The notes beneath the pieces were generated by a model, which saw only the letters and a list, made by a program, of their open reading frames with translations, had not been told where the DNA came from and searched no databases. From an uncultured Gammaproteobacteria bacterium (GTDB lineage: Bacteria; Pseudomonadota; Gammaproteobacteria; GCA-002705445; GCA-002716945), in NCBI GenBank assembly GCA_902559355.1, contig CACEHM010000002.1, positions 171,246-235,245 of the forward strand: 64,000 nt of DNA, read 5' to 3'. The position numbers were made by a program, and so were the translations under genes. The stretch's first letter is position 1. Each line of letters begins with the position of its first letter. Of this stretch, positions 8,334 to 61,882 are shown in pieces.

Positions 8334-8355
8334 TTTTTATTATTTTAATTATTGA

Positions 8356-25510: not shown

Positions 25511-26134
25511 ATGGATAAAGAAAAAATTAAAAATAAAATCTTAGATATTGAAACCAAGTATAATTTTACCGAGGGATACAAATTGCTATATTGTCCATGG
25601 TCAACTATTGAACACTCTTCGATTGCGTTTATATCATTAAACCCTGGCAGTAAAATGCCTGATGAGGCAGATATTAGATTGTTATCTGATGAGAGAGGTA
25701 ATTCATATGAAATAGAAATGCATACTACTAAATCTCCTATTACTCATCAATTTTTAGAACTGTGCAAACTTCTCAATAAGAATCCCTCAGATATTCTTAC
25801 TGGCACAATTTGTCCATTTAGAGGTAAATCATGGACATCATTTTCTCGTGATCAGAGAAATGCAGGTCTAATGCTAGGCAAATATTTCTGGCACAAAACT
25901 CTAGATAAGATTAACTTACTCATTTGCGTTGGTAATGATGTTGCAAAAAATATGACTTCTATTTCTGATTTTAAAAAAGAGAAAATTTTTGATTCAGGTT
26001 GGGGTGATATTAAAATAACAAGATATAAAGACAGCACAGGTAAGATACTTATTCATTTACCACACCTCTCTACTTTTAAACTTTTTTCTCGAAAAGAGTG
26101 CTTACTTGTTCTAAAACAAGTTTTTAAGTTATAG
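25511..26134 (+). CDS. hypothetical protein with UDG-superfamily (uracil-DNA glycosylase fold, family 4/SMUG-like) motif pattern
   Basis: IAFISLNPGSKMPDEAD resembles UDG motif 1 (hhhhG-x-[NA]-PG followed by acidic residues). HQFLELCKLL matches the following helix. TICPFRGKSW...LLICVGNDVA resembles the V-x-C-RP..NR...hhV-LG region. The C-terminal HLPHLS resembles UDG motif 2 (HPSPL). This is a recalled pattern match, not a database hit. Confidence 0.45.
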   Translation: MDKEKIKNKILDIETKYNFTEGYKLLYCPWSTIEHSSIAFISLNPGSKMPDEADIRLLSDERGNSYEIEMHTTKSPITHQFLELCKLLNKNPSDILTGTICPFRGKSWTSFSRDQRNAGLMLGKYFWHKTLDKINLLICVGNDVAKNMTSISDFKKEKIFDSGWGDIKITRYKDSTGKILIHLPHLSTFKLFSRKECLLVLKQVFKL

Positions 26135-26149
26135 ACTATAATTTAAATA

Positions 26150-27226
26150 ATGATTGATATACATGATAAACTGCCCTCTGATCTAATTATTGGCAATGAA
26201 TATACTAAACAAGAATTAGATAAGTTGTTTAAGACATCTGAAATTGAAAACATTTATGGGGGTATTGGAAAGATAAATAATCGTTTAATCTTGCTTATCA
26301 CTCTAGACAAAACCTACACCGCAGAACTTCCTAAAAATGAGTCTGAAATGTCAAGAGAAGAGAAGGAAGAGCATAATTATCGTCATCTTGACTATTTTGA
26401 TATGGAGGAAAATATTTTCTGTTGGGATGGACCTACTAATATGAATCTTGAGAGTCCTTTAATAAAAGACTTTACCTCAAAATTATATCAATGCCTGTTG
26501 TTTGTTAGAGAGTATTATCATAAAGATGAATATGAATTTAAGAATAAAATTACTAATGATAAGTATTTTTACTGTGGGAAGATAAGATATCAAAAACATA
26601 TTGATACTAAAATTAAACATTTTATTTCAAGTTTAGAAGATGAACCTAATAAGAAACTTAATCATTTATATAAATTCATACCGACTGAATTAGATGAAAG
26701 AAAGAAAGAATTTAATATCTTAAAAGAAAAAGAGAAAAATGATTTTATTGAGTTAGTGCATCAAGAAGAATCTCGCACTCATGAAAGGAAAAGCACTTTT
26801 TCTGGAAATCCAGGCATTAAAAAAGAGTATATGGTTGAAAGTAACCTCAAAGCAGTATGCGGTTTTCTTAATGAAAGAGGTGGTAACCTTATGATTGGTA
26901 TCGAAGACGATGGGGAGGTTACTGGTATAGAGAAAGATTATAATTATAAAGACAATGATCAATTTGAGAGACATATTCTTTTTCAAATGAGAAAACTAAT
27001 GGATAAATTTGAAGTAATTGAAAAATATATTAAGTTTCAATTTGAATATGCTTCTTTAAGTGATAAAGACTCATCTAGAAAAATAGTATGTAGAATAAAT
27101 TGTAGACCATTACCTGATGATGAAGTTTCTTATGTTAACGGTAAACTTTATTTAAGAGTAGGACCCCAAACTAATGAATTAAGTGTAAAAGAGGCGTTAT
27201 CATGGTTAAAGAGAAGACAAAAGTAA
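26150..27226 (+). CDS. protein with C-terminal AlbA_2 / Schlafen-like (divergent AAA-4) domain
   Basis: EESRTHERKSTF...AVCGFLNERGGNLMIGIEDDGEVTGIEKD matches the AlbA_2 signature (E-S-x-T-x-E-[FY]-K ... A-F-x-N-x-x-GG-x-L-x-IG-V-x-D-D-G-x-V-x-G-I). I recognise no family for the N-terminal ~190 aa. Confidence 0.5.
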   Translation: MIDIHDKLPSDLIIGNEYTKQELDKLFKTSEIENIYGGIGKINNRLILLITLDKTYTAELPKNESEMSREEKEEHNYRHLDYFDMEENIFCWDGPTNMNLESPLIKDFTSKLYQCLLFVREYYHKDEYEFKNKITNDKYFYCGKIRYQKHIDTKIKHFISSLEDEPNKKLNHLYKFIPTELDERKKEFNILKEKEKNDFIELVHQEESRTHERKSTFSGNPGIKKEYMVESNLKAVCGFLNERGGNLMIGIEDDGEVTGIEKDYNYKDNDQFERHILFQMRKLMDKFEVIEKYIKFQFEYASLSDKDSSRKIVCRINCRPLPDDEVSYVNGKLYLRVGPQTNELSVKEALSWLKRRQK

Positions 27227-27636
27227 AGATATACCAAGGTGGTTCAACAGGTTTAGTTCAACAAAATAAACGCATGATTATGAAGTCTTCTCACACCAAA
27301 GGTGATGTAGGGATTCAAAGACAATTAAAAGATATGTTAAAAGCGAAATTTTCTTTTCATATAGTAATTATGCACTTTGGTGATTTTTTCAGGATAATCG
27401 AAGAGGACGCAGAGTTTTTTAATAAAGAATTTAATTTTAAACTTTCACAACCAGGACGATACACTTTCGTTACAACTGCGTTCCCTCTAAATAGTAGGCA
27501 AAAATATATAGATAAACTTACTGATATGGAAAAACAATTTTGTCTTCTAGATCAATATAAAGTTGACGGTACAGAGGAATTTTATAGGAAGGTAAACATA
27601 TCAACAAATAAAGATGCACTAGGGTTCTGGTACTAA
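27202..27636 (+). CDS. stand-alone MutS domain I (mismatch-recognition domain)-like protein
   Basis: [45 protein letters not shown] parallels E. coli MutS [71 protein letters not shown] parallels [28 protein letters not shown]. The GDF-Y-E Glu is Arg here (GDFFR). The gene overlaps the upstream ORF by 25 nt; an alternative start is the Met at 27274. Confidence 0.5.
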   Translation: [144 protein letters not shown]

Positions 27637-27656
27637 ATAAGAGAAGTCTCTAGTTC

Positions 27657-28352
27657 ATGATTGATATAACTTTTGATATGTTCTCGGATACTCCTGAAGG
27701 AAAAGATCCAGATACATGGAGTCCAACGTTAAGAAAGTACCATCAAATTTTATGGAATAAACGATTACCCAATGGAACTATGTTTAGTCTTGATCTTGAG
27801 ACAAGACAGTTATTACATCACAGATCTCAATTAGGAGAATTTTATTTATCAAGTGATTGTATAGGTCATACATACAGTCGTACTAAAAGTATTTCTGATA
27901 TAGTCAATCAGATTCCCTTAAGTGAAATAGATTCGTTTTATAAACTATGTAGCACAATAGGTTCTTATATCATATATCCTTGCAAAAGAATTGATAATAA
28001 GATGACATTTAATGGTGCTCGAGGTACTAATCGCAAGATAAAAGATAGATTCGACCTAACATTAGAATGTATTCGATTGTTTTATCAAAATGAAAAAAGT
28101 CCACTTAGTGAGACTATAGAAAGATATAAATCATATTTTAAACTATTTGATAACTTTCAAGGTTATGTTGATTTCTTTTTACTTCAAGATTTAGTATCAA
28201 GTGATTATTCGTCTATTAAATATCTTATACCTTTTAAAGATTTCGATAGTCCAGCACTACCATGCAACGTAGAAGAATATATTACTTATAAAGATAATAC
28301 GACAAAATTTATTTCACAAAGAAATGAAAGAATATTAAAATCAATACAATGA
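27657..28352 (+). CDS. hypothetical protein (orphan, 231 aa)
   Basis: Tightly linked to its neighbours (ATGA overlap with the next gene). I recognise no motif. Conserved-looking stretch: DPDTWSPTLRKYHQILWNKRLPNG. Confidence 0.5.
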   Translation: MIDITFDMFSDTPEGKDPDTWSPTLRKYHQILWNKRLPNGTMFSLDLETRQLLHHRSQLGEFYLSSDCIGHTYSRTKSISDIVNQIPLSEIDSFYKLCSTIGSYIIYPCKRIDNKMTFNGARGTNRKIKDRFDLTLECIRLFYQNEKSPLSETIERYKSYFKLFDNFQGYVDFFLLQDLVSSDYSSIKYLIPFKDFDSPALPCNVEEYITYKDNTTKFISQRNERILKSIQ

Positions 28353-29419
28353 GTAAATTTAAACCTATCTTATACGACGAACTATTTAAATTAATAACAC
28401 TTGGTGATGATGAAGAATGGGAAAAATTTTCTTCAGAGTACGAACATGTCTTTACACCAGGGTTTTTCTCACAACTTTCTGACACCGAAATTTATGAACT
28501 ATTTAATCATTATCAATTTTTATCCATTGAATATTGGAATATTTATTCTTCTTCATTAATTAACTCAGAGAATAATAAAATTAGATCCAATCAACTTCTA
28601 AAAAAATATCGTGAAATATGGGAAGGAAAAACACATAATAAAAATAGCACAGTCACTCCTGGAATTAACGAAAGAAAAATTAAAGAAATTGATGATTTTG
28701 AATTTGCAATTAATTATCCAGTCGAGGAAATATTAGATCCATCATTAAGCGCCGCAGGACCACATTTCTCAGAGATTGTATTTTGTTCAATACTTTATAG
28801 TTTTTTTGAGGAAATACTAACAACCTTCGTATTTAATGTATCTGGAAGTAAGTGTTTTTTTAATAATATAAAATATAAAGATCATTACTTCTATAAAACA
28901 AATAGATATACAGACTTGTATAAAGATTATATGAAACATTCAATCAAAGAACCAAAGAGAAAAGACTATAAGAATTTAGATGATTTTTATTCGGAAAGAT
29001 TAAGATATAGAAACATTACTAAAAAAAGTCTTCCTGAAATTAAAAACAATGAATGGTTAGAGTTTTATAGAAATAATAAGGGTATTGATGGTCGAGAAGT
29101 CCCTGATTACATTATTAAAGCAAAATATATAGATCAAAGATGTGACAGTACATTATATTCTGACTTAATATCACAGAGTAGATTTAAAGAATTCAAAATT
29201 AAAAGGAACAATGTGATGCATGCAAAATCAAATGAATCTAATATATCAACTCTTGCATGTTTTGATATTATAACTGATTTGCTTAACTTCTTAATTAATG
29301 ATAAGAATATTATCAATCAATATTCTAGTTGTATAAGTCAAAACAGTCTAAGATTTGATATTGATAAATTAGATGACGATGATGCTATTTGGGTATTTCA
29401 ATCTGAGATGACTTATTAA
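28349..29419 (+). CDS. hypothetical protein with C-terminal HEPN/Abi_2-like R-x4-H motif (candidate RNase effector)
   Basis: The C-terminal FKIKRNNVMHAKSNESNISTLACFDII contains an R-N-x-x-x-H motif typical of HEPN abortive-infection proteins. Size and composition are compatible with AbiD/AbiF-like proteins. Weak. Confidence 0.35.
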   Translation: MSKFKPILYDELFKLITLGDDEEWEKFSSEYEHVFTPGFFSQLSDTEIYELFNHYQFLSIEYWNIYSSSLINSENNKIRSNQLLKKYREIWEGKTHNKNSTVTPGINERKIKEIDDFEFAINYPVEEILDPSLSAAGPHFSEIVFCSILYSFFEEILTTFVFNVSGSKCFFNNIKYKDHYFYKTNRYTDLYKDYMKHSIKEPKRKDYKNLDDFYSERLRYRNITKKSLPEIKNNEWLEFYRNNKGIDGREVPDYIIKAKYIDQRCDSTLYSDLISQSRFKEFKIKRNNVMHAKSNESNISTLACFDIITDLLNFLINDKNIINQYSSCISQNSLRFDIDKLDDDDAIWVFQSEMTY

Positions 29420-29425
29420 TATTTA

Positions 29426-29509
29426 TAGCGATAGACAGACTCGAACTGTCACTCTGTTGCCAGAATCGGATTTTGAGTCCGACGCGTCTACCAATTCCGC
29501 CATATCGCC
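29426..29509 (-). tRNA. tRNA-Leu (anticodon CAA), class II with long variable arm
   Basis: Cloverleaf read manually on the minus strand: acceptor GGCGATA/TATCGCT (G1-U72), D-arm GCG-GAATTGGTAGA-CGC, anticodon arm TCGGA-CTCAAAA-TCCGA, variable hairpin TCTG-GCAA-CAGA, T-arm GACAG-TTCGAGT-CTGTC, discriminator A, and no encoded CCA. Confidence 0.85.
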
Positions 29510-29640
29510 ATGAGTAATTTATTCTATCAAAAACACAAACACTTTGGAAAGGTGTATGTACGGATAAATGTTTGTGCAATGTTTGTGACTAAAATTTACA
29601 AATTATAAGCATTACCAAGGCATCTGATGCATCCGTCTTC

Positions 29641-32888: not shown

Positions 32889-34672
32889 TGCATAAGTATC
32901 CTACCTGGAAATATATTTTAGTACTAATAGTTTTAACTTATGCAGTAATTTATTCATTACCAAATTTTTATAACACATACCCATCTATTAATGTTACAAC
33001 GTTCGAGAACAAAGAAATATCTAAGGAAGAGTTATTAACGCTTTCAAACAAACATAAATTTTCTAATATTGGTATTGATGGAAATAGCATCTTTTTTGAA
33101 TCGATAGATAATCAACTAAAAGCATACAATAAATTATCTCAAGAAAAACTGTATCAGTATACGCTCAGTAATTATAATCAAATTCCTCGATGGTTAAGTG
33201 CTATTAATGCAAACCCTGTTTCATTGGGCCTTGACTTAAAAGGAGGGGTTCATTTCTTACTTCAAATAGACAGTGAAAACGTAAAAAAATCTAGAGTGAA
33301 TCAACTAGAGAGTAATCTTAGGAATTTTTTTATTGATAATGGCATAAGGTATAGCAGCTTTGTAAGTAATGATGAAAAAGTCACTTTCAATTTATCGAAT
33401 AAAACAATTGATCCAGAAGTTATGACTATACTTGAAGATAACTTTTCAGACTATGAAATAATTACTACTGATTCAAATGATGGATTAGATCTAATTGCCA
33501 ACTTATCACAAGAATCATTAGATAATGATATTAAAGCCTCAATGAAAAAGAATATCACTATTCTAAGATCACGAGTGAATGAGCTTGGAGTTTCTCAACC
33601 CATTATTCAACAACAAGGAAAAGAACGTATAATAGTTCAGCTCCCAGGACTTCAAGATTCTACAAGAGCTAAAAATATACTTGGCTCTACGGCAACACTT
33701 GAATTCAGATTAACAAAAGGGACTCCTGATGATTGGAATCAATCACTAGCAGCGGGAACAAATACCATCAGTGAATCACTTCTTTACAGGCACAAAAATG
33801 GTTCACCAATCTTGCTTTCAAGAAATGTAATTGCTTCTGGAAAAGATATTGAAGGAGCAAATTCAGGTTTTGACGGTCAGACCAATCAGCCTGCTGTCTT
33901 TGTAAACTTAAGCTCATTTGGCGCTTCTAATATGTTAGAGACTACTTCGAGAAATATTGGAAATAGGATGGCTGTAGTCTTTGTAGAACAAGATAAAAAT
34001 CAAGTTATTAATGTTGCTACAATTAGAGAGGCATTCAGCAAGCGTTTTCAAATTACTGGCCTTGATCTTCAAGAAGCTAAAGATTTAGCAATACTTTTAA
34101 GGTCAGGTTCATTGAGCGCACCTATGGCTATAGTAGAAGAGAGAACAGTTGGACCTAGCTTGGGTAGTCAAAATATTATCTCAGGACGAGACTCAATGGC
34201 ATTAGGGATGATGTTAGTTATTATATTTATGTTTATTTATTATAAAAAATTTGGCTTTGTAGCAAACATAGCATTAATAGTTAACATCTTAATAATTACT
34301 GCAACATTATCATTATTTCAGGCTACTTTGACTTTATCGGGTATAGCTGGAATTGTACTGACAGTTGGAATGGCCGTAGATGCCAATGTACTCATATATG
34401 AACGAATAAGAGAAGAGCTCCTTAATGGGAATAGCCCAAATGCTAGTATTATTTCTGGGTATAATAAAGCATTCTCAACAATCTCTGATGCAAATATTAC
34501 TACGTTAATAGCTGCTATTGCTCTACTAACCATAGGTACTGGCGTTGTAAAAGGGTTTGCTGTCACTCTTGTCATAGGAATACTATCCTCAATGTTTACA
34601 GCAATCGTTGGGACGAGAGCTATAGTAAGTATCATTTACGAAAATAAAAATAACAAAGGACTGTCTATATAA
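32888..34672 (+). CDS. secD: protein translocase subunit SecD
   Basis: Large periplasmic domain followed by a C-terminal 6-TM bundle; yajC-secD-secF order. Confidence 0.9.
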
Positions 34673-35562
34673 TGTTTAGAATTGTCAAAGATTTAGATAT
34701 TAAATTTATGAATATTAGAAGAGTTCCATTAATCATATCTGCTCTATTAATATTTATTTCTATGTCAAGTATAGCAGTGAAAGGCTTCAATTTCGGTATA
34801 GACTTTTCAAGTGGGTACATTGTACAGCTGAAATTTGACAATCAAGTTACAGTTGCAACTATTCAGGAAAAACTATATGAAAACAACTTAAACGATGTTT
34901 CGGTTCAGTTATATGGCTCTAGTAATGAAATATTAATAAAGCTTAGAGATGAAGAAATATTTAAAAAAATAAATATTAATAATCATATTAATGAAATCTT
35001 TAAAGATGATACTTTTATTATAACAAAACTTGAATATGTTGGAGCACAGGTAGGTAGCGAATTAAGAGATAAAGGAGAATGGGCAATGTTAATTGCACTA
35101 TTTAGTATTCTTATTTATGTTGCTCTAAGATTCGAGCTGATCTATGGATTAGGTGCTATATCAGCACTAGTGCATGATGTGATAATTACTCTTGGAATAT
35201 TTTCGTTTTTCAATCTAACCTTTGACCTTAGTGTCCTAGCTGCAATTTTAGCTGTAATAGGTTACTCACTAAATGATTCGATTGTCGTTTTTGATCGTAT
35301 AAGGGAGAATAATATCATTCTCAGGAAACTTTCAATATTTGACGTTCTTGATAAATCGATAAATCAGACTCTATCTAGAACGCTTGTAACATCACTGACT
35401 ACACTATTGGTCATAATATCGTTGTTAATGTTTGGAGGCAATGCTGTAGAAAACTTCGCTATCGCAATGCTAATAGGCATAATAATTGGGACTTATTCTT
35501 CAATCTTTATAGCGAGTGCAAGCTTATCTTATTTTGGGATAACTAGGCCTGAGGAAAATTAA
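34672..35562 (+). CDS. secF: protein translocase subunit SecF
   Basis: SecF topology and motifs (FGIDFSSG...). Confidence 0.9.
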   Translation: MFRIVKDLDIKFMNIRRVPLIISALLIFISMSSIAVKGFNFGIDFSSGYIVQLKFDNQVTVATIQEKLYENNLNDVSVQLYGSSNEILIKLRDEEIFKKININNHINEIFKDDTFIITKLEYVGAQVGSELRDKGEWAMLIALFSILIYVALRFELIYGLGAISALVHDVIITLGIFSFFNLTFDLSVLAAILAVIGYSLNDSIVVFDRIRENNIILRKLSIFDVLDKSINQTLSRTLVTSLTTLLVIISLLMFGGNAVENFAIAMLIGIIIGTYSSIFIASASLSYFGITRPEEN

Positions 35563-36290
35563 TTTAGTTTTTTCATATTATTTTCATTAGCCAGTATCAA
35601 ATAATCGCCAGATGTTTCTATGATAATTCCAGCTTCTTTCGCAATAAGTATACAATCTTGATTATGATTATATTCATCCATACTTAATAAATAAAAGTCA
35701 ATTAGACCTCTTGAAAGGTAAATTAATTCAACAGATACAGAATTAAGAGATATTTTTTCCATAGTATTAAAATATTCAGGAATAATTATATCTTTAGAAG
35801 TTCCATAAATAAGTCTTTCTGTACTAATATTTGATCTAATCTTCCTCTGATTATTTACAGAACCAGAACCTTTCTCGCTAAATAGCAATATATCTAGAAA
35901 TGGGTTTAATAAGAACGAAGATATAACATTTTTTTTGTGAATAATTGATAATGATAAAGTCCAAAAAGGTAATTTCCTACAAAAGTTATCATAATCATGT
36001 ATAAAGTTAATTGCCCATACATACGACTCCTCTTTATGTTTTGATGCGTTGTAGATAATATTAGGATCTTCTAGACGAAGTCGCTTCTCATCCTCTATAT
36101 ATGTAAAACTAATAAAATCATTTTCACCAAACTTATAATATGTATTAATATGTTCTACAGCTTTACTCGTAAGTATTTCTCTTACAGGCATATTTTTTAG
36201 TGCATCAGTACTTTTATTAATAAAGAATCTTCTGACTTCCTCTTCAATAAGTTCGCCTGCAGATTTTGCTATATTCAGTCTTGGTTGCAT
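35559..36290 (-). CDS. suhB: SuhB/inositol-monophosphatase-family protein with degenerate metal-binding motif
   Basis: The N-terminus MQPRLNIAKSAGELI parallels SuhB MHPMLNIAVRAARKAG. The gene is divergent from trmJ-iscR, as suhB is in enterics. The W-V-I-DPLDGT-TNF region reads W-A-I-NFIHDY-DNF, so both Asp of DPxDGT are lost. Confidence 0.6.
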   Translation of the reverse strand: MQPRLNIAKSAGELIEEEVRRFFINKSTDALKNMPVREILTSKAVEHINTYYKFGENDFISFTYIEDEKRLRLEDPNIIYNASKHKEESYVWAINFIHDYDNFCRKLPFWTLSLSIIHKKNVISSFLLNPFLDILLFSEKGSGSVNNQRKIRSNISTERLIYGTSKDIIIPEYFNTMEKISLNSVSVELIYLSRGLIDFYLLSMDEYNHNQDCILIAKEAGIIIETSGDYLILANENNMKKLN

Positions 36291-37034
36291 AATATAATTT
36301 TGTTAGATAGTGTATATTACATTATGTCTAGTAATATTAATATTGTTTTAGTTAAGACCAGTCACCCAGGAAATATTGGCTCTACAGCAAGGGCTATGAA
36401 AACTATGGGTTTAAAGAATCTCACTCTCGTGCAACCAAAAAACTTTCCATCCGATATTGCAAAAGCACAAGCTGTTGGATGTGTTGACATTTTAAATAAT
36501 GCTAATATTACTACAGTTTTAAAAGAGGCTTTAGGTTCTTCAAAATTAGCAATCGGCTTCTCAGCAAGATCTAGAAAATCAAATATACCATCACTTTCAA
36601 TGAATGAATTGATGGACCTATTGAATGTGTATGATAAAGAAAATGTTTCTATTGTTTTTGGAAATGAGCAATCAGGTTTATCTAATGAAGAACTTCAATT
36701 ATGTAATTATCTAGTATCTATTCCTACAGACAGTGCTTATACCTCTCTAAATTTAGCATCTTCAGTTCAAATATTTTCTTATGAGTACTTTAAATCATGT
36801 GACGCTAAACCAATCTCCAAAAAACTTCAAGATTTAGCAAGTCATTCCAGTAAACTTGTCTTGATAGAGAAATTTTTATCAATAATGTCTGACTTAGATA
36901 TCATTACAGAAAAGAATAAAAAATCACTTGTCCAAAATATTCATATAATTTTTAATAAAACAAATTTTACTGAAAATGAAGTCAATTTATACCTTGGTAT
37001 TCTTACTAAAATAGGAAAAGCCTTAAAAAAATAA
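36285..37034 (+). CDS. trmJ: tRNA (cytidine/uridine-2'-O)-methyltransferase TrmJ (SpoU family)
   Basis: SPOUT motifs (VLVKTSHPGNIGSTARAMKTMG, VFGNEQSGLSNEEL), located upstream of iscR. Confidence 0.8.
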   Translation: MHNIILLDSVYYIMSSNINIVLVKTSHPGNIGSTARAMKTMGLKNLTLVQPKNFPSDIAKAQAVGCVDILNNANITTVLKEALGSSKLAIGFSARSRKSNIPSLSMNELMDLLNVYDKENVSIVFGNEQSGLSNEELQLCNYLVSIPTDSAYTSLNLASSVQIFSYEYFKSCDAKPISKKLQDLASHSSKLVLIEKFLSIMSDLDIITEKNKKSLVQNIHIIFNKTNFTENEVNLYLGILTKIGKALKK

Positions 37035-37072: not shown

Positions 37073-37519
37073 ATGAAATTAAGTACTAAATCAAGATATG
37101 CTATCACAGCTATAATTGACCTTGCGCAAAATCAAAATGGCGCAGTTTCTCTTAAGGATATCTCTATTAGACAGGGAATATCCCTTTCTTATTTAGAACA
37201 GCTTTTTTGTAAATTGAAAAATAAAAAAGTTGTAACAAGTAGAAGAGGGCCTGGTGGCGGATACACTTTGAATAGAAAAAGCAGTGATATTTCATTGTTT
37301 CAAATTATTACAGCTGTAGATGAAAATATTGATCAAACCCAATGCGCAGGAAGCATGAATTGCTTAAAAGATAAACCATGTACAACGCATCATGTTTGGA
37401 CCGGACTTAATAAAATTATAAAGGACTATATGAAAAGCATAACTATTGAAGATGTAATTACAAATCAAGTTATACATAATTTGCATGATGCAAGGGAGAG
37501 CAAGACTCATGTCAGCTAA
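37073..37519 (+). CDS. iscR: Fe-S cluster assembly transcriptional regulator IscR (Rrf2 family)
   Basis: An Rrf2 helix-turn-helix ([18 protein letters not shown]...[10 protein letters not shown]) and Cys ligands (CAGSMNC...C). Confidence 0.85.
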
Positions 37520-38756
37520 CACTAAAAAAATAAATTCTACTTTAAGTATTCCAATATATTTGGATTACTCATCAACAACACCTGTGGATAAACGTGTTGC
37601 TGATAAAATGTCGGAGTGTCTAACACTAGATGGAGCTTTTGGAAATCCAGCTTCAAGGTCACACTCTTTTGGTTGGGATAGCGACCATCTTATTAAAACA
37701 GCACGAGCAAATGTTGCTAATCTTCTTAAATGTGATAGCAAAGAAATTGTTTGGACTAGTGGTGCAACCGAATCTAACAATCTTGCAATCAAAGGCGCTG
37801 CACATTTTTATAAATCTAAAGGTGATCATTTAATTACACTTACAACTGAACATAAAGCAGTTTTAGATACTATGAGACAGTTAGAGCTTGAAGGGTACAA
37901 TGTAACATACCTTGATCCTGAGCCAAATGGATTAGTAGATCTTAAAAAACTAGAAGATGCCATAACAGAGAAAACTCTTCTTGTATCCATAATGCATGTA
38001 AATAATGAAATAGGCGTCATACAAGATTTGGAAAGTATTGGTAAATTATGTAAAAAGCATAAAATATTATTTCATGTTGATGCTGCTCAAAGCCCAGGGA
38101 AAGTTGATATTGATGTAAATAAATTTAATGTTGATTTAATGTCATTATCTGCTCATAAAGTCTATGGGCCAAAAGGCATAGGAGCTTTATTCATTAGAAG
38201 AAAGCCTAGAGTTAGGTTAGAAGCTCAAATGCATGGAGGAGGCCATGAAAGAGGTTTTAGATCTGGTACTCTACCAACTCATCAAATAGTAGGAATGGGA
38301 GAAGCTTTCAGAATTGCAAATGAAGAAATGGAAGTTGATAACATACGTATAAGAAAACTTAGAGATAAATTTTGGGCTCAACTTAAAGATGTTGAAGAAA
38401 TATATCTAAATGGTGATTTAGACAGCAGAATCCCTGGAAACCTTAACGTTAGTTTCAATTATGTTGAGGGTGAAAGCTTAATCATGGCAATTAAAGATAT
38501 CGCTGTATCATCAGGTTCAGCATGTACCTCTGCCAGTCTAGAGCCTAGTTATGTTCTTCGTGCACTTGGAAGAGATGATGAACTGGCTCATAGTTCAATT
38601 AGAATTACTATCGGAAGATACACAACTGAAGAAGAAGTCGATTATGCAGTGGAATTGTTAAAAAAATCTGTAGCCAAGCTTAGAGATTTATCACCATTAT
38701 GGGATATGTATAAAGATGGTGTGGATATTAAATCTATCAAATGGAATACACATTAA
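37509..38756 (+). CDS. iscS: cysteine desulfurase IscS
   Basis: N-terminus [15 protein letters not shown]-Lys region [15 protein letters not shown], active-site loop SSGSACTS, and a C-terminus ([20 protein letters not shown]) close to E. coli IscS. The ORF is open upstream to 37485. Confidence 0.9.
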
Positions 38757-38759
38757 TTC

Positions 38760-39080
38760 ATGATTAGTATAACTGAAAAAGCAGCAGATCATATTAAGGG
38801 ACAATTAAGCCAACGTGGTAAAGGTCTAGGCATAAGACTTGGTGTGAAAACTACTGGATGCTCAGGATTAGCATATGTTATAGAGTTCGCTGATAGTGAA
38901 AATGACGATGATAATGTATTTTTAGACAAAGGAATTAAGTTAATAGTAAATCCAAAAAGCTATGTTTATTTAAAAGGCACTGAAGTAGATTTTGCAAAAG
39001 AGGGTATCAATGAAGGATTTAAGTTTAAGAATCCAAATGTAAAAGATACTTGTGGTTGCGGCGAAAGCTTCAATGTGTAA
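38760..39080 (+). CDS. iscA: Fe-S cluster A-type carrier IscA
   Basis: HesB-family protein with the C-terminal CGCGESF motif. It starts 4 nt after the iscS stop. Confidence 0.8.
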
Positions 39081-39571
39081 TGTCACCACTAAACCTTACT
39101 TATTTCGAAATATTTGATGTAGAAATTAACATCTCTATAGATCTTAATGATCTAGACTCGAAATATCTAAAACTACAATCAAAGTTCCATCCTGATAAGT
39201 TTGTCAATGCATCTTCAATTGAAAAATCTATGGCAGTGAGAATATCAACTCATATCAATGATGGTTATAAAACACTAAAAGATCTTGTATCAAGAGTAGA
39301 TTATATTTTAAAAATTAATAACTTTATTATTGACGAAAATAAAACCTTTAAAAACAGTAAATTCTTAGTTGAACAAATGGAACTTACAGAGATAATCAAA
39401 GATAGTGAAAAATCTAAATATGACGCTATTAGAATGGATATTAAAAATAAAATATCTTTATTAATTATAGAGATGAAAAATAATCTTTTTAACAAAGATT
39501 TTGATATACTTCACCAAAATAATTCAATGATAAAATTTTACAAAAAAAACATCAATCAACTCAGTATGTAA
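39080..39571 (+). CDS. hscB: co-chaperone HscB (J-domain)
   Basis: J-domain with HPDKF, upstream of hscA. The start is taken at the ATG that overlaps the iscA stop. Confidence 0.7.
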
Positions 39572-39572
39572 T

Positions 39573-41372
39573 ATGGCTTTAATACAGATATCTGATCCAG
39601 AAATTAAAACCGAGATAAAAAGAAAATTCTCTGTTGGTATTGACCTTGGAACCACCCATTCATTGATAGCAGAAAGAGTAAACAATAAGATTACAATCTT
39701 TGAGGAAAATGGCTCTTCTTTAATTCCGTCTATAGTTTCAGAAGTTGAGGGAAACTTAGTTATTGGTCAAAAACATCATAATAATTCAATATCATCCATA
39801 AAAAGACTTATGGGCTTGACTTCAGATGAAACCTTAAAAATTGACTTTGGTAAATTATTAATTGATTCAAGCCTGGATATGCCAACAGTAAAACTCGGAG
39901 AAAAAAAATATAATGCTATAGAGCTATCATCAAAAATTCTCTCCCATTTATGCTCTATTGCACATAATGATAAGTCTGTTGAATCTGCTGTTATAACGGT
40001 ACCAGCATACTTCAATGATATGCAGCGGCAAGCTACAAAATTAGCTGCAGAGATGGCAGATATTGAGGTATTACGCTTAATTAGCGAACCTACAGCGGCT
40101 GCAATTGCTTATGGTATTCAAGATAACCAGAAAGGAAATTTTATTATTTATGATTTAGGTGGTGGCACTTTTGATGTCTCAGTTCTAACAATTGATAAAG
40201 GTATATTTAAGGTTCTCTCTACTAAAGGCGACACACATCTGGGAGGCGATGATATAGATAGATTGTTGGTTGAGTATATATGTACTAGATATGAAAATTT
40301 ATTAAACCTATCTACAATTGATTTGTATAAACTAGCAAGATCGTTAAAACATCAGTTATCACAAAAAAATATTGCTATAGAGAATAGTCATAATGTCTCA
40401 GTTTCTATCGATGATTTTAATAGTATAATTAATCCGCTAATAGAAAAAACTATCAATATTATAACTGAGGCACTCAATGAATCGTCATTAAGTATAGATC
40501 AAATAAATAATATCATTTTAGTTGGAGGATCATCGAGACTTAAGCTTGTTAAAGAAAAGCTTAATAAAAAATATAATATTAATATTTTAGATCATCTTAA
40601 TCCAGATACTGTGGTTGCTGAGGGTGCTGCTATACAAGCAGAGATTTTATCAGGAAATACTAAAGATGATCTACTATTACTAGACGTATTACCTCTATCA
40701 CTTGGCGTTGAAACATATGGTGGGCTCTCAGAAAAAGTTATTACTAGAAATACTCCAATTCCTACATCATCAGAAAAAACATTTACTACATTTAAAGATG
40801 GACAAACTAAAATGATGATTAAAATAGTCCAAGGTGAGAGAGAGGACATATCGGAATGTATATCTTTAGGTGAATTTGTTTTATCTGATATTCCACCTCT
40901 TGTCGCTGGTGCTGCAAGAATACTTGTTAGGTTTCAAGTTGATGCTGACGGCCTATTAACTGTTAGTGCAAAAGAACAAACCATAAATAAGGAAGCATCA
41001 ATAGTAATTAAGCCTTCACATGGTTTAACTCCTGAGAAAATTCAAGAAATGATCACTTCATCTAATAAAAAAGCTGAAACTGATAAAGACTTTAGAGCTC
41101 TAAAAGAGCATATTGTTGAATCTGAAAGAGCAATTTATGCAATAGAGGAGGCCTTGAAGACAGACAGCGATGAATTATTGAATAAAACTGAACTTAAATT
41201 GATCAATGATGCCGTTACAAAGTTAAAAAATACCATCAAAACAAATCATCTAGATGCTATTAAAGACGCAAATAAAAATCTTGAAAATATTTGCGAATTT
41301 TATGTAGAACGAAGAATGAATAATAGCATCAAGTCATTAATTACAGGCAAAGATATTAATGATATAGTGTGA
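39573..41372 (+). CDS. hscA: Fe-S assembly chaperone HscA (Hsp70-type)
   Basis: Hsp70 signatures ([27 protein letters not shown]). Confidence 0.9.
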
Positions 41373-48321: not shown

Positions 48322-51102
48322 ATGAGATTATCTAGAATAAAATTATCAGGCTTTAAAACATTTGTTGATTCTACTTCTCTAAACTTACCAAGTAATCTAA
48401 CTGGTATCGTAGGACCAAATGGATGCGGCAAGTCAAATATTATAGATGCAATCAGATGGGTTATGGGAGAATCATCAGCCCGAAATTTACGGGGAGAAAC
48501 AATGGATGATGTCATATTCTCAGGTTCATCATCAAGAAGTGAAGTAAGCCATGCTAGTATCGAACTATTATTTGACAACTCAGACAATAAACTAGATTCA
48601 AAATTTGCAAAATTCAGTGAGATCATGATACGCCGAGAAGCTAATCGTGATGGGACTTCAACGTATTTTTTAAATAATGCTCGTTGTAGAAGAAAAGATA
48701 TTAGAGAGGTTTTTCTTGGAACGGGACTTGGGCCTAGAAGTTATGCAATTATCGAGCAAGGTATGATATCGAAGATTATAGATTCAAAACCTGAGGAACT
48801 AAGAACATACTTAGAAGAAGCAGCTGGAATTAGTAAATATAAAGAAAAAAGAAGAGAAACTGAGTTGCGACTAAAGCATACCTCTGAAAACCTATCTAGA
48901 TTAAATGATATTATGCGTGAAATAAATTCATCTTTGACAAAACTTCAAAAACAAGCCAGAGATGCGGAATTATACAAAGAATTAAAATCTAAAGAAGAAA
49001 GTTTGAAAATAAAAATCACCGCAAAAAAAATCATAAGCTTTGATGGAAAATTAGAAGATTCTAAAAAAGAAAATCACACATACTTAGTTCAAAAAGAAAA
49101 ATATAAATCAGAGTCAACAGGATATGTTAGTAAAGTTGATGAATTAAGATTATCCAGAGATACTGAACAAGACAGATATGCAAAAATTCAATCAGAGTCA
49201 TTTCATATTGCTGCTGAGATTGCTAGAGCAGAAAAAGATATAGAATACACCCAACAAATCGAAACAAGCAAAAAAGATAATATTAATGACATAAATACAG
49301 ATATTGAAAAAATTCAAACCCAAATAGACGATTTAAATAATAAAAAATTATTAAACAATAATTTAATTGATAAAAATGAAATTAATAAAAAAGAATTAGA
49401 AACAAAAATAAAAAATATAGATAAAGCAATTAAAGATTCTTCATTCTCACTTCAGAACTGGCAGTCAAACTTTAATAAATTCCTTGCTGATAAACTTGAG
49501 CTACAAAAGAAAATTGAACTAGAAAAATCTAGAATAGAGTCTTATATTGAAAATATTAAAAATTTGGAAAATAGACTTGATAAATATAATGAATCTGATG
49601 ACTCTACTGAAAATAATATTCAAATAGAACTTCTAGAAAACTCTGAGGTATTCCAAAAAAAGTTAATTAATTTTAAAGTTGACTACGAAAGGTATATAAA
49701 AAAACTTCCATCTGATGCAACTAAATCTCTAAATCAGATGTTAAATAATTTAATTGATGAATTTAAAGGGATTGTTATCAAAATTAAGGAAAATAATAAA
49801 TCTGTTAGACAACAAATTAAAGATACACAAAATAATATCAAAATTTATAAAGATAAAATTATATCAAGCGAAGATCTGCTAATTAAGTTTGCTAATCAAA
49901 ATGATGAATATGAAAAACATAAAAATTATCTTGAAAAACAAAAAATAGACTTAAAACAAGTCCATGATAAATTAAACTGGCAATTTAATGAGTCTTCTGA
50001 AGAGCTTAATGTCAAAAATGTTCAAGTCACAACTTTAAAGACTGAAATCTCATCTTATGCAGATAACCTTGCTAGATCATCAGCTGATATAGATGTACTC
50101 GTCCAAAAAAAACAAGAATTATTGTCTAATTCTGAAAAACCCATTGGATTAAACATTAAAAACAAACTACATAATTTTATAAATCATAAAAAAGAAAAAG
50201 ATATACAACTTACAAAATCTCAAGACAAAATATCTTATATTGATAATGAAATTAGACAATATGAAGATATGATAGGCAAATTATCAATCAAATCACAATC
50301 AGTGGAGAAGCAAATAAATGATTCGAATATTGCTCTAGCTGAAATAAAAACAAATAAACTTGCGTTATTAGAAAATTCAGACTTCGATAAAGATAGAATA
50401 TTACAAACAATTAAAACTATTGATGAAATCGCATTAGATGATAATGAAAAGATGTTGTCTGAGACTAAGAATAAAATTGATAAGTTAGGTGCTATCAACC
50501 TTGCAGCTATAGACGAGCTTAAAGAGCAGGAGGAACGTAAGATATATCTTGATAAGCAATTTGAAGATCTTACAAAATCTGTGGAAATACTTGAAAGCGC
50601 AATAAAGAAAATCGATATTGAAACAAAATCTAAATTTAAAGATACTTTTGATGCTATCAATAAAAATCTTTCTTACTTTTTCCCGAAAATCTTTGGTGGT
50701 GGGAAATCTTATTTGGAGCTTACTGATAACGATTTACTAAATACAGGTGTTAATATTATGGCTAAGCCGCCAGGCAAATTAGTTAAAAATTTAAACTTAC
50801 TATCAGGTGGTGAAAAAGCAGGTACAGGAATTGCATTTGTTTTTTCTATCTTTAGAATCAATCCTGCTCCTTTCTGTTTACTTGATGAGGTAGATGCACC
50901 ACTAGATGAGGCTAATAACGAAAGGTTTTGTAACGTTGTTAAAGAGATGTCTGAAACAGTCCAATTTATATTTATTACTCATAACAAATCAACTATGCAA
51001 ATGGCAGACGTTCTATCAGGTGTCACCATGAGAGAGGCTGGAGTCTCTAAGATGGTATCTGTTAATGTGGAAGATGCTCTTCAAATGACATCAGAAAATT
51101 AA
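48322..51102 (+). CDS. smc: chromosome segregation protein SMC (short, 926 aa)
   Basis: N-terminal Walker A GPNGCGKSNIIDAIRWVMGE, long coiled coils, the C-terminal LSGGEK signature, and Walker B LLDEVDAPLD. It is followed by ligA. Confidence 0.8.
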   Translation: MRLSRIKLSGFKTFVDSTSLNLPSNLTGIVGPNGCGKSNIIDAIRWVMGESSARNLRGETMDDVIFSGSSSRSEVSHASIELLFDNSDNKLDSKFAKFSEIMIRREANRDGTSTYFLNNARCRRKDIREVFLGTGLGPRSYAIIEQGMISKIIDSKPEELRTYLEEAAGISKYKEKRRETELRLKHTSENLSRLNDIMREINSSLTKLQKQARDAELYKELKSKEESLKIKITAKKIISFDGKLEDSKKENHTYLVQKEKYKSESTGYVSKVDELRLSRDTEQDRYAKIQSESFHIAAEIARAEKDIEYTQQIETSKKDNINDINTDIEKIQTQIDDLNNKKLLNNNLIDKNEINKKELETKIKNIDKAIKDSSFSLQNWQSNFNKFLADKLELQKKIELEKSRIESYIENIKNLENRLDKYNESDDSTENNIQIELLENSEVFQKKLINFKVDYERYIKKLPSDATKSLNQMLNNLIDEFKGIVIKIKENNKSVRQQIKDTQNNIKIYKDKIISSEDLLIKFANQNDEYEKHKNYLEKQKIDLKQVHDKLNWQFNESSEELNVKNVQVTTLKTEISSYADNLARSSADIDVLVQKKQELLSNSEKPIGLNIKNKLHNFINHKKEKDIQLTKSQDKISYIDNEIRQYEDMIGKLSIKSQSVEKQINDSNIALAEIKTNKLALLENSDFDKDRILQTIKTIDEIALDDNEKMLSETKNKIDKLGAINLAAIDELKEQEERKIYLDKQFEDLTKSVEILESAIKKIDIETKSKFKDTFDAINKNLSYFFPKIFGGGKSYLELTDNDLLNTGVNIMAKPPGKLVKNLNLLSGGEKAGTGIAFVFSIFRINPAPFCLLDEVDAPLDEANNERFCNVVKEMSETVQFIFITHNKSTMQMADVLSGVTMREAGVSKMVSVNVEDALQMTSEN

Positions 51103-53124: not shown

Positions 53125-53908
53125 TACCGACTTTACTCAAAGTCTTTGCATCAACTTTTTTTACAATTACTGCGCAGTATAAGTTGCATGTACCGTCTTT
53201 TGATGGAAGCGAACCTGAGACTACAACAGAGCCTTCGGGAACTTCACCATATGAAACTGACTTGGTTTCTCTGTCATATATCTTTGTACTTTTTCCTATA
53301 AAGACTCCCATAGAAATTACTGAATTTTTTCTTACAATGACGCCTTCTACAACTTCAGACCTTGCTCCTATAAAGCAATTATCTTCAATTATCGTTGGGG
53401 AGGCTTGTAAAGGTTCCAGAACACCACCTATACCTACACCACCGGATAAGTGTACATTTTCGCCTATCTGAGCACATGACCCTACTGTTGCCCATGTATC
53501 AACCATTGTTCCTTCACCGACGTATGCACCAATATTTACAAATGATGGCATTAAGACTACATTCTTATCTATAAAGGACCCATGACGCGCTATAGCCTGT
53601 GGAACTATTCGAATATTCTTTTCTTTTAGAAACTGTTCTGAAGTGTATAAAAATTTTGAATCAACTTTATCATAAAATTTTGTATAGCCTGTATCAATTG
53701 CTTTATTTTGATTTAATCTAAACGATAGTAAAATAGCCTTTTTAGCCCATTCATTTACAGTCCATTGGCCATCTTTATTTTCAGCAACTCTTAATATACC
53801 CTGATCTAGAGAAGATATAGTTTCCGATACAGCATTTGATACGTGCTTCTTATTATCATCAGTTATACCACTCTCGAATGCTTCATTAATTATATCTGTG
53901 TTATTCAT
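53099..53908 (-). CDS. dapD: 2,3,4,5-tetrahydropyridine-2,6-dicarboxylate N-succinyltransferase
   Basis: Left-handed beta-helix hexapeptide repeats with DapD N- and C-termini. Confidence 0.85.
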
Positions 53909-60496: not shown

Positions 60497-60908
60497 AAAT
60501 TACCTCATTAAAAATCTTGGTGATTATGTATCACTTTTTAAAAACATCAACCTTTGTGTCAATAGTAGAACGGTAATTTTTTTAAAAGGAGAACTTGGTT
60601 CCGGAAAAACGACTTTTGTTCAAAATTATCTCAAATATAAATATGCTTTTACAAATGCCACTAGTCCAACATTTGGAATAGTGAATACGTATTCAATTAG
60701 TCAAATAATGATATATCATTATGATTTATACAGAATCACAAAACCAGAGGAGCTTAATGACATAGGACTTTATGATAATTTAGAGGCAAACGCTCTTCAT
60801 TTTGTCGAGTGGCCTGAAATAATTCCTAAACAAATCTGTAAGCCAAATATTATAATTAATTTTCAATCACTTTCTAAAGAACGAATAATATCTATCAATA
60901 TTATATGA
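60486..60908 (+). CDS. tsaE: tRNA threonylcarbamoyladenosine biosynthesis protein TsaE
   Basis: P-loop GELGSGKTTF and the conserved HFD/YR motifs. Confidence 0.8.
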   Translation: MANKNYLIKNLGDYVSLFKNINLCVNSRTVIFLKGELGSGKTTFVQNYLKYKYAFTNATSPTFGIVNTYSISQIMIYHYDLYRITKPEELNDIGLYDNLEANALHFVEWPEIIPKQICKPNIIINFQSLSKERIISINII

Positions 60909-61822: not shown

Positions 61823-61882
61823 ACTAATATAAAATTGATGAGCTGATATCTATGGTATATTATCTAACTGGAGATAATTTAT

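What the first reader, a model, noticed from the sequence alone, without database searches (positions are those of the whole stretch)
35559..36290. SuhB homolog with a degenerate DPxDGT metal-binding motif
The ORF is the positional orthologue (divergent from trmJ-iscR) and a clear N-terminal sequence homologue of SuhB/IMPase. However, the canonical W-V-I-DPLDGT-TNF segment reads W-A-I-NFIHDY-DNF, and the protein is about 25 aa shorter. SuhB's essential role in the rRNA antitermination complex is structural, so this could be a SuhB retained for antitermination that has lost phosphatase activity.
Basis: partly seen in the sequence, partly recalled or inferred. Interest (0 to 1): 0.5.

Follow-up and report, generated by a model that had tools for sequence, protein, structure and literature searches.

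The report
Catalytically dead SuhB in marine bacterium
This gene is the counterpart of SuhB, a protein that is both a sugar-phosphate phosphatase and a ribosomal-RNA transcription factor, in an abundant uncultured marine bacterium; it has lost its metal-binding catalytic residues yet is kept under strong selection, a natural hint that SuhB's conserved job is not enzymatic.

Summary
The ORF at 35559-36290 (-) encodes a 243-aa protein. It sits where E. coli suhB sits, divergent from trmJ-iscR-iscS. It starts MQPRLNIA (E. coli MHPMLNIA) and reads WAINFIHDYDNF where E. coli has WVIDPLDGTTNF.

D84, D87, T89 and D212 are all replaced, and no conserved acid stands at the E67 position. The second motif, WDxAAG, reads NHNQDC.

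The gene is not decaying. Orthologues of 60-98% identity all keep 242-244 aa, and dN/dS is 0.05-0.10. A sister lineage with identical gene order carries an intermediate form (WVINPIDCYENF, LDSAAG).

Similar degenerate proteins occur elsewhere, including an alphaproteobacterial SuhB orthologue, so the loss happened more than once.

The antitermination role remains an inference:
- The C-terminal helix that binds NusA AR2 in E. coli is cut short.
- No boxA precedes the gene.
- NusA of this lineage could not be reached.

Verdict: a natural pseudo-phosphatase form of SuhB. It is a new variant of a known kind, of moderate interest.

The parts
35559..36290 (-). suhB orthologue, 243 aa; IMPase fold without the catalytic residues
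35982..36017 (-). Degenerate motif A: W92-A-I-N95-F-I-H98-D99-Y100-D-N-F, in place of W-V-I-D84-P-L-D87-G88-T89-T-N-F
   Evidence: Translation; alignments. In 127 clade sequences N95 is N/S/K and H98 is H/N/Q, while F96, D99 and Y100 are invariant.
35652..35669 (-). Degenerate motif B: N208-H209-N-Q-D212-C213, in place of W211-D212-F-A-A-G216
   Evidence: Translation. The alignment is ungapped back from the conserved KEAG/REAGG anchor. H209 varies (H/K/Y/M); D212-C213 are invariant.
36045..36059 (-). I78-I-Y-N81-A82, the segment aligned with E. coli I-I-T-E67-E68
   Evidence: hhalign and chained BLAST through P0130; translation. Position 81 is N or D and position 82 is A/E/K/N/T in the clade. 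The AF2 secondary structure would instead put the strand at D58-F62, so this placement is less certain than the others.
35562..35585 (-). Truncated C-terminal helix (E236-N243); K240 aligns with E. coli K251 and the last residue N243 with L254
   Evidence: hhalign alignment. AF2 helix 236-242. K251/L254 are the NusA-AR2 contact residues in E. coli (PMC6614801).
36291..36323 (.). 33-nt spacer between the divergent suhB and trmJ start codons; its core AATGTARTATACACTATCTAAC is invariant in the clade
   Evidence: Comparison of the window with L001-L006, although dS exceeds 1 in the suhB coding sequence between these sub-lineages. It is not a canonical boxA (consensus from PMC5725501).
36324..37034 (+). 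trmJ (SpoU methylase), the divergent neighbour; its probable start is M14 of the listed ORF
   Evidence: ORF. tblastn to E. coli trmJ gives 39% identity. E. coli gene order.
34672..35562 (+). secF, the convergent neighbour; its stop overlaps the suhB stop by 4 nt
   Evidence: The same arrangement is found in L008-L011.

Best explanation
The gene is the true (positional and sequence) orthologue of suhB in a streamlined, roughly 30% GC, uncultured marine gammaproteobacterium. It keeps the IMPase fold. The carboxylate ligands of the two main metal sites (D84, D87, D212) and the water-activating Thr (T89) are replaced, and no conserved Glu stands at E67. Residues that are Gly or Ala around the phosphate pocket in active enzymes are now invariant Asp and Cys. 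It is therefore very probably not a phosphatase (inferred from sequence). It is nevertheless under strong purifying selection, so it works as a non-catalytic protein. The most likely job (inferred from E. coli work, not shown here) is SuhB's structural role as a Nus factor. In that role a dimer joins NusA, NusG, NusB/NusE and the rRNA leader on RNA polymerase last, and locks the rRNA transcription and folding complex together. The history appears to be a burst of sequence change after catalysis was given up, followed by renewed constraint. Approximate sub-confidences: orthology 0.9, loss of IMPase activity 0.85, Nus-factor role 0.55.
For: Orthology:
- The gene order is the same as in E. coli.
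- In a sister lineage the order queA-tgt-yajC-secD-secF / suhB / trmJ-iscR-iscS-iscA-hscB-hscA is identical.
- That lineage's protein, P0130, links the two ends by full-length BLAST: query-P0130 E 4e-30 and P0130-E. coli SuhB E 1e-27, both starting at residue 1.
- P0130 matches the NCBIfam SuhB model over positions 1-254 of 267.

Loss of ligands:
- D84 is N/S/K, D87 is H/N/Q, T89 is Y, D212 is H/K/Y/M, and the E67 equivalent is N/D.
- These are the metal ligands and the water-activating Thr seen in SuhB crystal structures: PaSuhB Glu67, Asp86, Leu88, Asp89, Asp216 and Thr91.
- The former ligand positions differ between sub-lineages, while their neighbours are invariant.

Selection:
- dN/dS is 0.05-0.10 in unsaturated pairs.
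- All orthologues are 242-244 aa with no frameshift.
- At least 209 clusters (90% identity) of the protein were found in marine metagenomes.

Rate pattern:
- Within the clade, suhB diverges like trmJ and hscB (63% against 62-69% identity).
- Towards the sister lineage it is by far the most diverged gene of the neighbourhood (33% against 45-79%).

From established knowledge:
- IMPase-defective E. coli SuhB mutants are not cold sensitive (PMC4807359).
- SuhB is a structural part of the rrnTAC (PMC6614801, PMC8632103).
- SuhB binds last and stabilises the complex.
Against: - No experiment or genomic link to Nus factors was found here. There is no nus gene in the window.
- There is no boxA upstream of the gene or anywhere in the window.
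- The C-terminal helix that holds the NusA-AR2 contacts is cut at the position of L254.
- The protein falls below the Pfam gathering score and far below the NCBIfam SuhB cut-off of 332 bits (17.8 bits).
- The placement of E67 is ambiguous: hhalign and AF2 secondary structure disagree, and a conserved acidic pair, E66-D67, lies nearby.
- The invariant D99 and D212 could in principle bind a metal.
- The AF2 alignment contained canonical IMPases, which favours that fold.
Confidence: 0.6

Rival explanations
1. The old active-site pocket has been rebuilt into a new binding or catalytic site. The invariant residues D99, Y100, C104, D212 and C213 (with H98/H209 in this strain) would bind a different metal or ligand, or RNA. 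The protein would then have a new molecular activity instead of, or in addition to, the scaffold role.
For: These residues replace Gly, Thr, Ile, Ala and Gly of canonical enzymes and are invariant in 127 sequences, while the former ligand positions vary. The segments around the old pocket (DYDNFCRKLPFW, SLNSxSVELIYLS, QDCxLxAKEAG) are among the most conserved in the clade.
Against: Core segments of a fold are conserved in any case. An I-to-C and G-to-C pair may simply be compensating packing changes, and Asp in place of Gly in a phosphate pocket is what plain inactivation would look like. H98 and H209 are not conserved in the clade. The model's coordinates could not be inspected, so no geometry supports a site.
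Confidence: 0.12
2. It is a SuhB descendant that left the Nus complex and is kept for some other non-enzymatic role, such as another partner in RNA or membrane-protein biogenesis.
For: Sequence change on the branch to this clade was very large: 21% identity to E. coli SuhB against 30-68% for the neighbouring genes. The NusA-AR2-binding helix is truncated. There is no boxA autoregulation signal.
Against: In E. coli the AR2 contact is dispensable for SuhB entry into the rrnTAC (PMC6614801). BoxA upstream of suhB was shown for Enterobacteriaceae; elsewhere another Nus gene is typically the autoregulated one (PMC5725501). No other function of SuhB proteins is known that would explain retention in a streamlined genome.
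Confidence: 0.15
3. It is still an inositol or sugar-phosphate phosphatase, and the apparent loss of ligands is an alignment artefact in a very divergent, AT-biased sequence.
For: Identity to solved IMPases is only 12-20%. The N-terminal third aligns differently with different methods. Most clade members have D-E at positions 81-82.
Against: Motif A is anchored by W and NF on either side, and motif B by the ungapped KEAG helix. All methods agree there. No Asp lies at positions 84, 87 or 212 in any of the 127 clade sequences. The sister protein P0130 shows a stepwise intermediate (N-P-I-D-C-Y and L-D-S-A-A-G) in the same register.
Confidence: 0.05
4. It is a decaying gene, a pseudogene in the making.
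For: The catalytic residues are lost and the protein is shorter.
Against: dN/dS is 0.05-0.10. Length is constant and the frame intact across 60-98% identical orthologues and hundreds of metagenomic variants. The N-terminal 55 residues are almost invariant.
Confidence: 0.02

Closest known systems
E. coli / P. aeruginosa SuhB (Nus factor SuhB, inositol-1-monophosphatase; PDB 2qfl, 6ib8, 6tqn, 8wdq)
   Same: Same chromosomal position next to trmJ-iscRS. Same N-terminus and fold. Homology is traceable over the full length through P0130.
   Different: About 21% identity. The metal-ligand Asp residues and the catalytic Thr are replaced, and no conserved acid is at E67. It is 24 aa shorter, with the C-terminal AR2-binding helix cut at L254. 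There is no boxA in the leader. It scores far below the NCBIfam equivalog cut-off.
Engineered IMPase-defective SuhB mutants of E. coli (cited in PMC4807359 as not cold sensitive)
   Same: SuhB without phosphatase activity that still supports growth; this is the logic the present protein appears to follow in nature.
   Different: Those are laboratory mutants of an otherwise intact enzyme. Here the whole pocket has been rewritten by evolution and fixed in a lineage.
P0130, the suhB orthologue of a sister marine lineage (loci L008-L011)
   Same: Identical gene neighbourhood. 33% identity over residues 1-224. It also has D84 to N and T89 to Y.
   Different: It keeps P85, D87 and the L-D-S-A-A-G motif with D212. 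It is 259 aa with a longer C-terminus, and so represents an intermediate state.
Degenerate IMPase-family proteins of other lineages, e.g. P0136 (E 4e-42 to canonical Bartonella SuhB 3luz), and P0133 and P0135 (directly downstream of efp; P0133 from a 558-kb genome record, CP060235.1)
   Same: IMPase-family proteins that lack the EE, DPxDGT and WD acids.
   Different: P0136 is alphaproteobacterial by its match to Bartonella SuhB. P0133 and P0135 sit in a different genomic context from the gamma arrangement. These losses are therefore independent, and their sequences are unrelated to this clade beyond the family level.

Membership tests
IMPase / FBPase-type sugar phosphatase fold (Pfam PF00459) | Five-layer alpha-beta-alpha-beta-alpha fold | tested here: met
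IMPase / FBPase-type sugar phosphatase fold (Pfam PF00459) | Sequence match above the curated Pfam threshold | tested here: not met
   25.1 bits against a gathering score of 27 for the single sequence. Homology is nevertheless secure at profile level: hhalign probability 99.8%, E 3.3e-27.
Active Mg-dependent IMPase-family phosphatases | Motif A, D-P-[ILV]-D-[GS]-[TS], supplying the two Asp ligands and the catalytic Thr | tested here: not met
   The motif reads N-F-I-H-D-Y. In the clade the first Asp is N/S/K, the second is H/N/Q, and the Thr is Y. Ligand roles are taken from PaSuhB structures.
Active Mg-dependent IMPase-family phosphatases | Motif B, W-D-x-A-A-G, supplying the third Asp ligand | tested here: not met
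   The motif reads N-H-N-Q-D-C. The Asp position is H/K/Y/M.
Active Mg-dependent IMPase-family phosphatases | Glu of the E-E pair (E67) binding metals 1 and 3 | tested here: inconclusive
   hhalign and chained BLAST give N81-A82 in the window and D-E in most clade members. The AF2 secondary structure suggests S61-F62 instead, with a conserved E66-D67 close by. No placement gives a conserved Glu.
SuhB orthologous group (Nus factor SuhB) | Conserved gammaproteobacterial position, divergent from trmJ-iscR-iscS | tested here: met
SuhB orthologous group (Nus factor SuhB) | Full-length sequence relationship to SuhB, including the N-terminal helix | tested here: met
   MQPRLNIA against MHPMLNIA. BLAST chain query-P0130-E. 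coli, each from residue 1. P0130 matches PRK10757 over positions 1-254.
SuhB orthologous group (Nus factor SuhB) | NCBIfam equivalog score (PRK10757, cut-off 332 bits) | tested here: not met
   17.8 bits for the window protein, 24 bits for P0121 and L005, and 81 bits for P0130.
SuhB orthologous group (Nus factor SuhB) | NusA-AR2 contact on the C-terminal helix (K251, L254 in E. coli) | tested here: inconclusive
   K240 aligns with K251 (K in 124 of 127 sequences). The chain ends at the L254 position (N243, or absent). Whether NusA of this lineage has an AR2 domain could not be determined.
SuhB orthologous group (Nus factor SuhB) | Homodimer that joins NusA/NusG/NusB/NusE and boxA RNA on RNA polymerase | not testable with these tools
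   This needs biochemistry or multimer modelling. No nus gene or rrn leader lies in the window.
SuhB orthologous group (Nus factor SuhB) | BoxA in the suhB leader (autoregulation; shown for Enterobacteriaceae, so not strictly defining) | tested here: not met
   The best upstream candidate, ACTATCTAACA, differs from GYTCTTTAANA at positions 1, 4 and 6. There is no perfect match in the window.

The most novel reading that the evidence does not exclude
Giving up phosphatase chemistry is a recurrent outcome for SuhB in streamlined and reduced genomes, not a single accident. In this abundant marine clade the emptied pocket has been rebuilt, with invariant D99, Y100, C104, D212 and C213, into a new binding site for a metal, a small ligand or RNA that serves the transcription or ribosome-assembly role. 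That would make it a pseudo-enzyme with a newly evolved function rather than a merely inactivated one.
Probability: 0.15. Interest if true: 0.65.

Novelty: new variant of a known kind. Interest (0 to 1): 0.45.

Why it matters
SuhB is one of the classic moonlighting proteins. It has a real IMPase activity with no obvious use in E. coli, and it has an essential-like structural role in the rRNA transcription complex. Evidence that the enzyme activity is dispensable comes from laboratory mutants.

A widespread natural lineage that has erased the catalytic residues, yet keeps the protein under strong selection, is an independent evolutionary test of that idea. There are also parallel cases elsewhere. 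Comparing dead and live SuhBs could show which surfaces matter for the Nus function.

There is also a practical point. Such proteins are annotated as "inositol monophosphatase family enzymes", so metabolic reconstructions of these marine genomes would wrongly credit them with that activity.

Tried and rejected
- **BoxA upstream of suhB.** The conserved spacer contains ACTATCTAACA(A), a 9/12 match to GCTCTTTAACAA. It differs at positions 4 and 6, which are critical in E. coli, and matches of this quality are at chance level in the window (12 found, 11 expected). There is no perfect GYTCTTTAANA anywhere. Rejected as evidence.
- **NusA or other nus genes, or an rrn leader, in the window.** None were found (Rfam; Pfam). 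Five of the ORFs of at least 120 aa were not scanned: 53099-57029 (-), 62994-63863 (+) and the antisense ORF 50235-50660. annotates 62994-63863 as Band_7.
- **Extending beyond the window ends by exact protein look-up.** One protein was not on record; the other lay on a 1.1-kb contig.
- **Foldseek against AFDB,** to get organism names: the library was not available.
- **Huang et al. 2020 (rrnTAC cryo-EM),** wanted for residue-level SuhB contacts: the paper is not held.
- **MAFFT and hhalign pairing of the query's GENDFIS with E. coli GSNDFVT (residues 35-41).** I treat this as probably spurious. The P0130 bridge and the AF2 helices instead place query helix 36-51 on E. coli helix 2. This affects only the E67 assignment.
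- **Pseudogene reading.** Rejected on dN/dS.
- **PADLOC on the small island at 25.5-29.4 kb.** No hits.
- **Literature.** No paper holds both SuhB and pseudoenzyme, or both SuhB and SAR86, and none of those read describes a natural catalytically dead SuhB. The library is limited, so this is not proof of novelty.
- **Taxon.** It could not be pinned below "uncultured marine Gammaproteobacteria" (record titles). SAR86 is only my guess from the GC content and the habitat.
Full report
**1. What is there**

The ORF at 35559-36290 on the minus strand encodes 243 aa from an ATG. It converges on secF, and the two stop codons overlap by 4 nt. Its start codon lies 33 nt from the probable start of trmJ on the other strand. 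trmJ is followed by iscR, iscS, an iscA-like gene, hscB and hscA.

E. coli K-12 has the same arrangement, with suhB divergent from trmJ-iscR-iscS. The window is about 30% GC throughout. It carries ordinary housekeeping and biosynthetic genes of a free-living bacterium, including trpFBA, purF, gyrA, pheA, tyrA, aroA, rpsA, ligA, der and miaA.

The closest genome records are marine MAGs and single-cell genomes titled only "Gammaproteobacteria bacterium". The protein is common in marine metagenomes, Tara included: 209 clusters at 90% identity, one of them with 253 members.

**2.

Residues 92-103 read WAINFIHDYDNF. HMMER against solved structures, MAFFT and a profile-profile alignment all place them on W81-V-I-D84-P-L-D87-G-T89-T-N-F of E. 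coli SuhB.

The second signature of the family, W211-D212-x-A-A-G, reads N208-H209-N-Q-D212-C213. Here the alignment runs ungapped back from the conserved KEAG/REAGG helix.

The E67-E68 pair aligns with N81-A82 (IIYNAS against IITEES), both by hhalign and by chaining BLAST alignments through an intermediate protein. This last placement is less secure, because the secondary structure of the AF2 model would put the corresponding strand at D58-F62. Neither placement yields a conserved Glu.

In SuhB crystal structures the metal ligands are Glu67, Asp86, Leu88 (carbonyl), Asp89 and Asp216, and Thr91 takes part in water activation (P. aeruginosa numbering). These correspond to E. coli E67, D84, L86, D87, D212 and T89. 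The three Asp ligands and the Thr are therefore replaced in the window's protein, and no conserved acid stands at E67.

The protein is 24 aa shorter than E. coli SuhB. In the hhalign alignment the missing residues lie in three places: the C-terminal helix (the alignment ends at E. coli residue 254), the 160-180 region, and a hairpin near residue 230.

**3. It is an IMPase-fold protein and the SuhB orthologue**

On its own the sequence is marginal: Pfam PF00459 scores 25.1 bits against a cut-off of 27, and the NCBIfam SuhB model scores 17.8 bits against 332. At profile level the homology is secure. A clade profile against 67 canonical IMPases gives probability 99.8% and E 3.3e-27.

An AF2 model built on a 126-sequence alignment has pLDDT 89.5 and pTM 0.87.
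- Foldseek ranks P. aeruginosa SuhB first (E 9.7e-14) and finds E. coli SuhB inside the rrn antitermination complex (6tqn, E 1.7e-11).
- The fold alone does not separate SuhB from HisN or IMPA2.

Orthology therefore rests on position and on a bridge. An exhaustive search of 1.84 billion cluster representatives shows that the clade is small and isolated: its own cluster, P0121 at 60% identity, then P0130 at 34%, then generic IMPases below 33%.

P0130 comes from another marine lineage of about 30% GC. Its locus has exactly the same gene order: queA-tgt-yajC-secD-secF, then suhB, then trmJ-iscR-iscS-iscA-hscB-hscA-fdx-iscX-ndk-hisS. P0130 aligns with the query from residue 1 (E 4e-30) and with E. 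coli SuhB from residue 1 (E 1e-27). It also matches the NCBIfam SuhB model over positions 1-254.

P0130's motifs are intermediate: W-V-I-N-P-I-D-C-Y-E-N-F and L-D-S-A-A-G. D84 and T89 are already lost, while D87 and D212 are still present.

**4. It is maintained, not decaying**

Six genome orthologues (62-98% identity) and P0121 (60%) are all 242-244 aa with intact frames. Nei-Gojobori dN/dS is 0.10, 0.085, 0.062 and 0.054 for the four pairs whose dS is unsaturated, and 0.08-0.24 for the saturated pairs.

Within the clade, suhB diverges about as fast as trmJ, hscB and hscA (63% identity against 62-69%). Towards the sister lineage it is much the most diverged gene of the neighbourhood (33% against 45-79%), and likewise towards E. 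coli (21% against 30-68%). This fits a burst of change when catalysis was abandoned, followed by renewed constraint.

In 127 clade sequences the former ligand positions differ between sub-lineages:
- position 95 is N/S/K;
- position 98 is H/N/Q;
- position 209 is H/K/Y/M;
- position 81 is N/D.

Many neighbouring residues are invariant: F62, D67, F96, D99, Y100, N102, F103, C104, D212 and C213. So is nearly the whole N-terminal 55 residues. D99, C104, D212 and C213 stand where active enzymes have Gly88, Ile93, Ala215 and Gly216. My reading, from general knowledge of IMPase active sites, is that these side chains fill or block the phosphate and substrate pocket. I could not inspect coordinates to check this.

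**5. How it probably works**

Shown here: a SuhB orthologue with the IMPase fold, without the catalytic residues, under purifying selection. The remaining steps are inferences.

Without the Asp ligands of metal sites 1 and 2, without the catalytic Thr and without a conserved Glu, the protein should not hydrolyse phosphomonoesters. No member of this superfamily is known to me that works without them.

The retained function is most likely SuhB's structural one. In E. coli:
- The growth defect of suhB loss is not reproduced by IMPase-defective mutants (PMC4807359).
- A SuhB dimer, together with the Nus factors, forms a ring at the RNA exit channel of RNA polymerase on rRNA operons (PMC8632103).
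- SuhB is needed for stable integration of NusB/NusE (PMC6614801).
- In single-molecule work it binds last and stabilises the whole complex (bioRxiv 10.64898/2026.03.17.712431).

Two features do not fit neatly.
- The helix carrying K251 and L254 is cut. [quoted passage not shown] Here K240 aligns with K251 and the chain ends at the L254 position. However, AR2 is dispensable for SuhB entry into the complex in vitro, and AR domains are not universal in NusA.
- There is no boxA. The gammaproteobacterial consensus GYTCTTTAANA (PMC5725501) has no perfect match in the window. The conserved spacer sequence ACTATCTAACA differs at positions 4 and 6, both critical in E. coli. That paper also reports that typically only one Nus gene per genome is autoregulated, so absence upstream of suhB is not informative.

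NusA and the rrn leader of this lineage could not be reached.

**6. The same thing has happened elsewhere**

I scored the 132 full-length proteins of the alignment set: 125 cluster representatives recovered by the query, six clade orthologues and the E. coli reference. Each was scored on D84, D87, T89 and D212.
- 61 keep all four residues.
- 59 keep two or fewer; seven of these are the present clade and one is P0130.

This sample is biased towards sequences that resemble a degenerate query, so the fraction means little. The cases themselves are real.
- P0136 matches the canonical Bartonella SuhB structure at E 4e-42 yet reads P-T for E-E, I-N-I-I-D-G-F for I-D-P-L-D-G-T, and F-E for W-D.
- P0133 (from a 558-kb genome record, CP060235.1) and P0135 both lie directly downstream of efp and keep none of the four scored residues.

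Because P0136 is alphaproteobacterial by its match, and the genomic contexts differ from the gamma arrangement, loss of the catalytic residues occurred at least twice independently. I found no paper describing this, within the limits of the library.

**7. Comparison, novelty and score**

The protein works like SuhB minus its enzyme function, which is an inference. By position and descent it belongs to the SuhB orthologous group. It fails every test for membership among active IMPases, and it falls below the curated sequence thresholds that annotation pipelines use.

I rate it a new variant of a known kind: a natural pseudo-phosphatase SuhB. It is not categorically new, because laboratory mutants already showed that the activity is dispensable. 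It would matter in two ways. It is an evolutionary confirmation of that result, and it offers a way to map which SuhB surfaces serve the Nus function. It also matters for correct annotation.

Interest is 0.45. The more novel reading, a rebuilt pocket with a new binding function, is possible but unsupported (probability about 0.15).

Noticed in passing
window 37485-41372; L008 2859-6778: The isc operon has no iscU. iscS is followed 3 nt later by an iscA-like gene, then hscB and hscA. tblastn with E. coli IscU finds nothing in the window or in the sister locus. HscA and HscB normally act on IscU, so either iscU lies elsewhere or the system works differently.
   Followed up: partly
window 36291-36323: The 33-nt spacer between the divergent suhB and trmJ starts has an invariant core, AATGTARTATACACTATCTAAC, in all six orthologous loci, although synonymous sites in the suhB coding sequence are saturated between these sub-lineages. 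It is not a canonical boxA. It is probably made of overlapping divergent promoters and initiation regions, but this is unexplained.
   Followed up: partly
window 25511-29510: There are five ORFs beside tRNA-Leu(CAA): two unknown, one with a Schlafen/AlbA_2 domain, a 144-aa MutS-domain-I-like protein and a DUF6994 protein. The ORFs are missing from the otherwise syntenic sister locus L008. This looks like a small inserted island. There are no PADLOC defence-system hits.
   Followed up: partly
window 60905-63001: miaA is followed after 60 nt by hflK. The hfq and hflX genes, which in E. coli lie between them (from memory), are absent here.
   Followed up: no
L008-L011 (P0130, gene at 8001-8780): The sister marine lineage carries an intermediate SuhB (WVINPIDCYENF, LDSAAG; 259 aa) in the identical neighbourhood. 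It is a useful stepping stone for reconstructing the order in which the ligands were lost.
   Followed up: yes
L012 5001-5705 (P0133), L014 5001-5741 (P0135), L013 5001-5789 (P0136): Other IMPase-family proteins lack the catalytic acids. Two sit directly downstream of efp, one of them in a 558-kb genome record. The third is a clear relative of the canonical Bartonella SuhB. This suggests recurrent loss of SuhB catalysis in reduced genomes.
   Followed up: partly
window 35559-35562: secF and suhB converge, and their stop codons overlap by 4 nt, leaving no room for a terminator between them. This is typical of a tightly packed genome.
   Followed up: no
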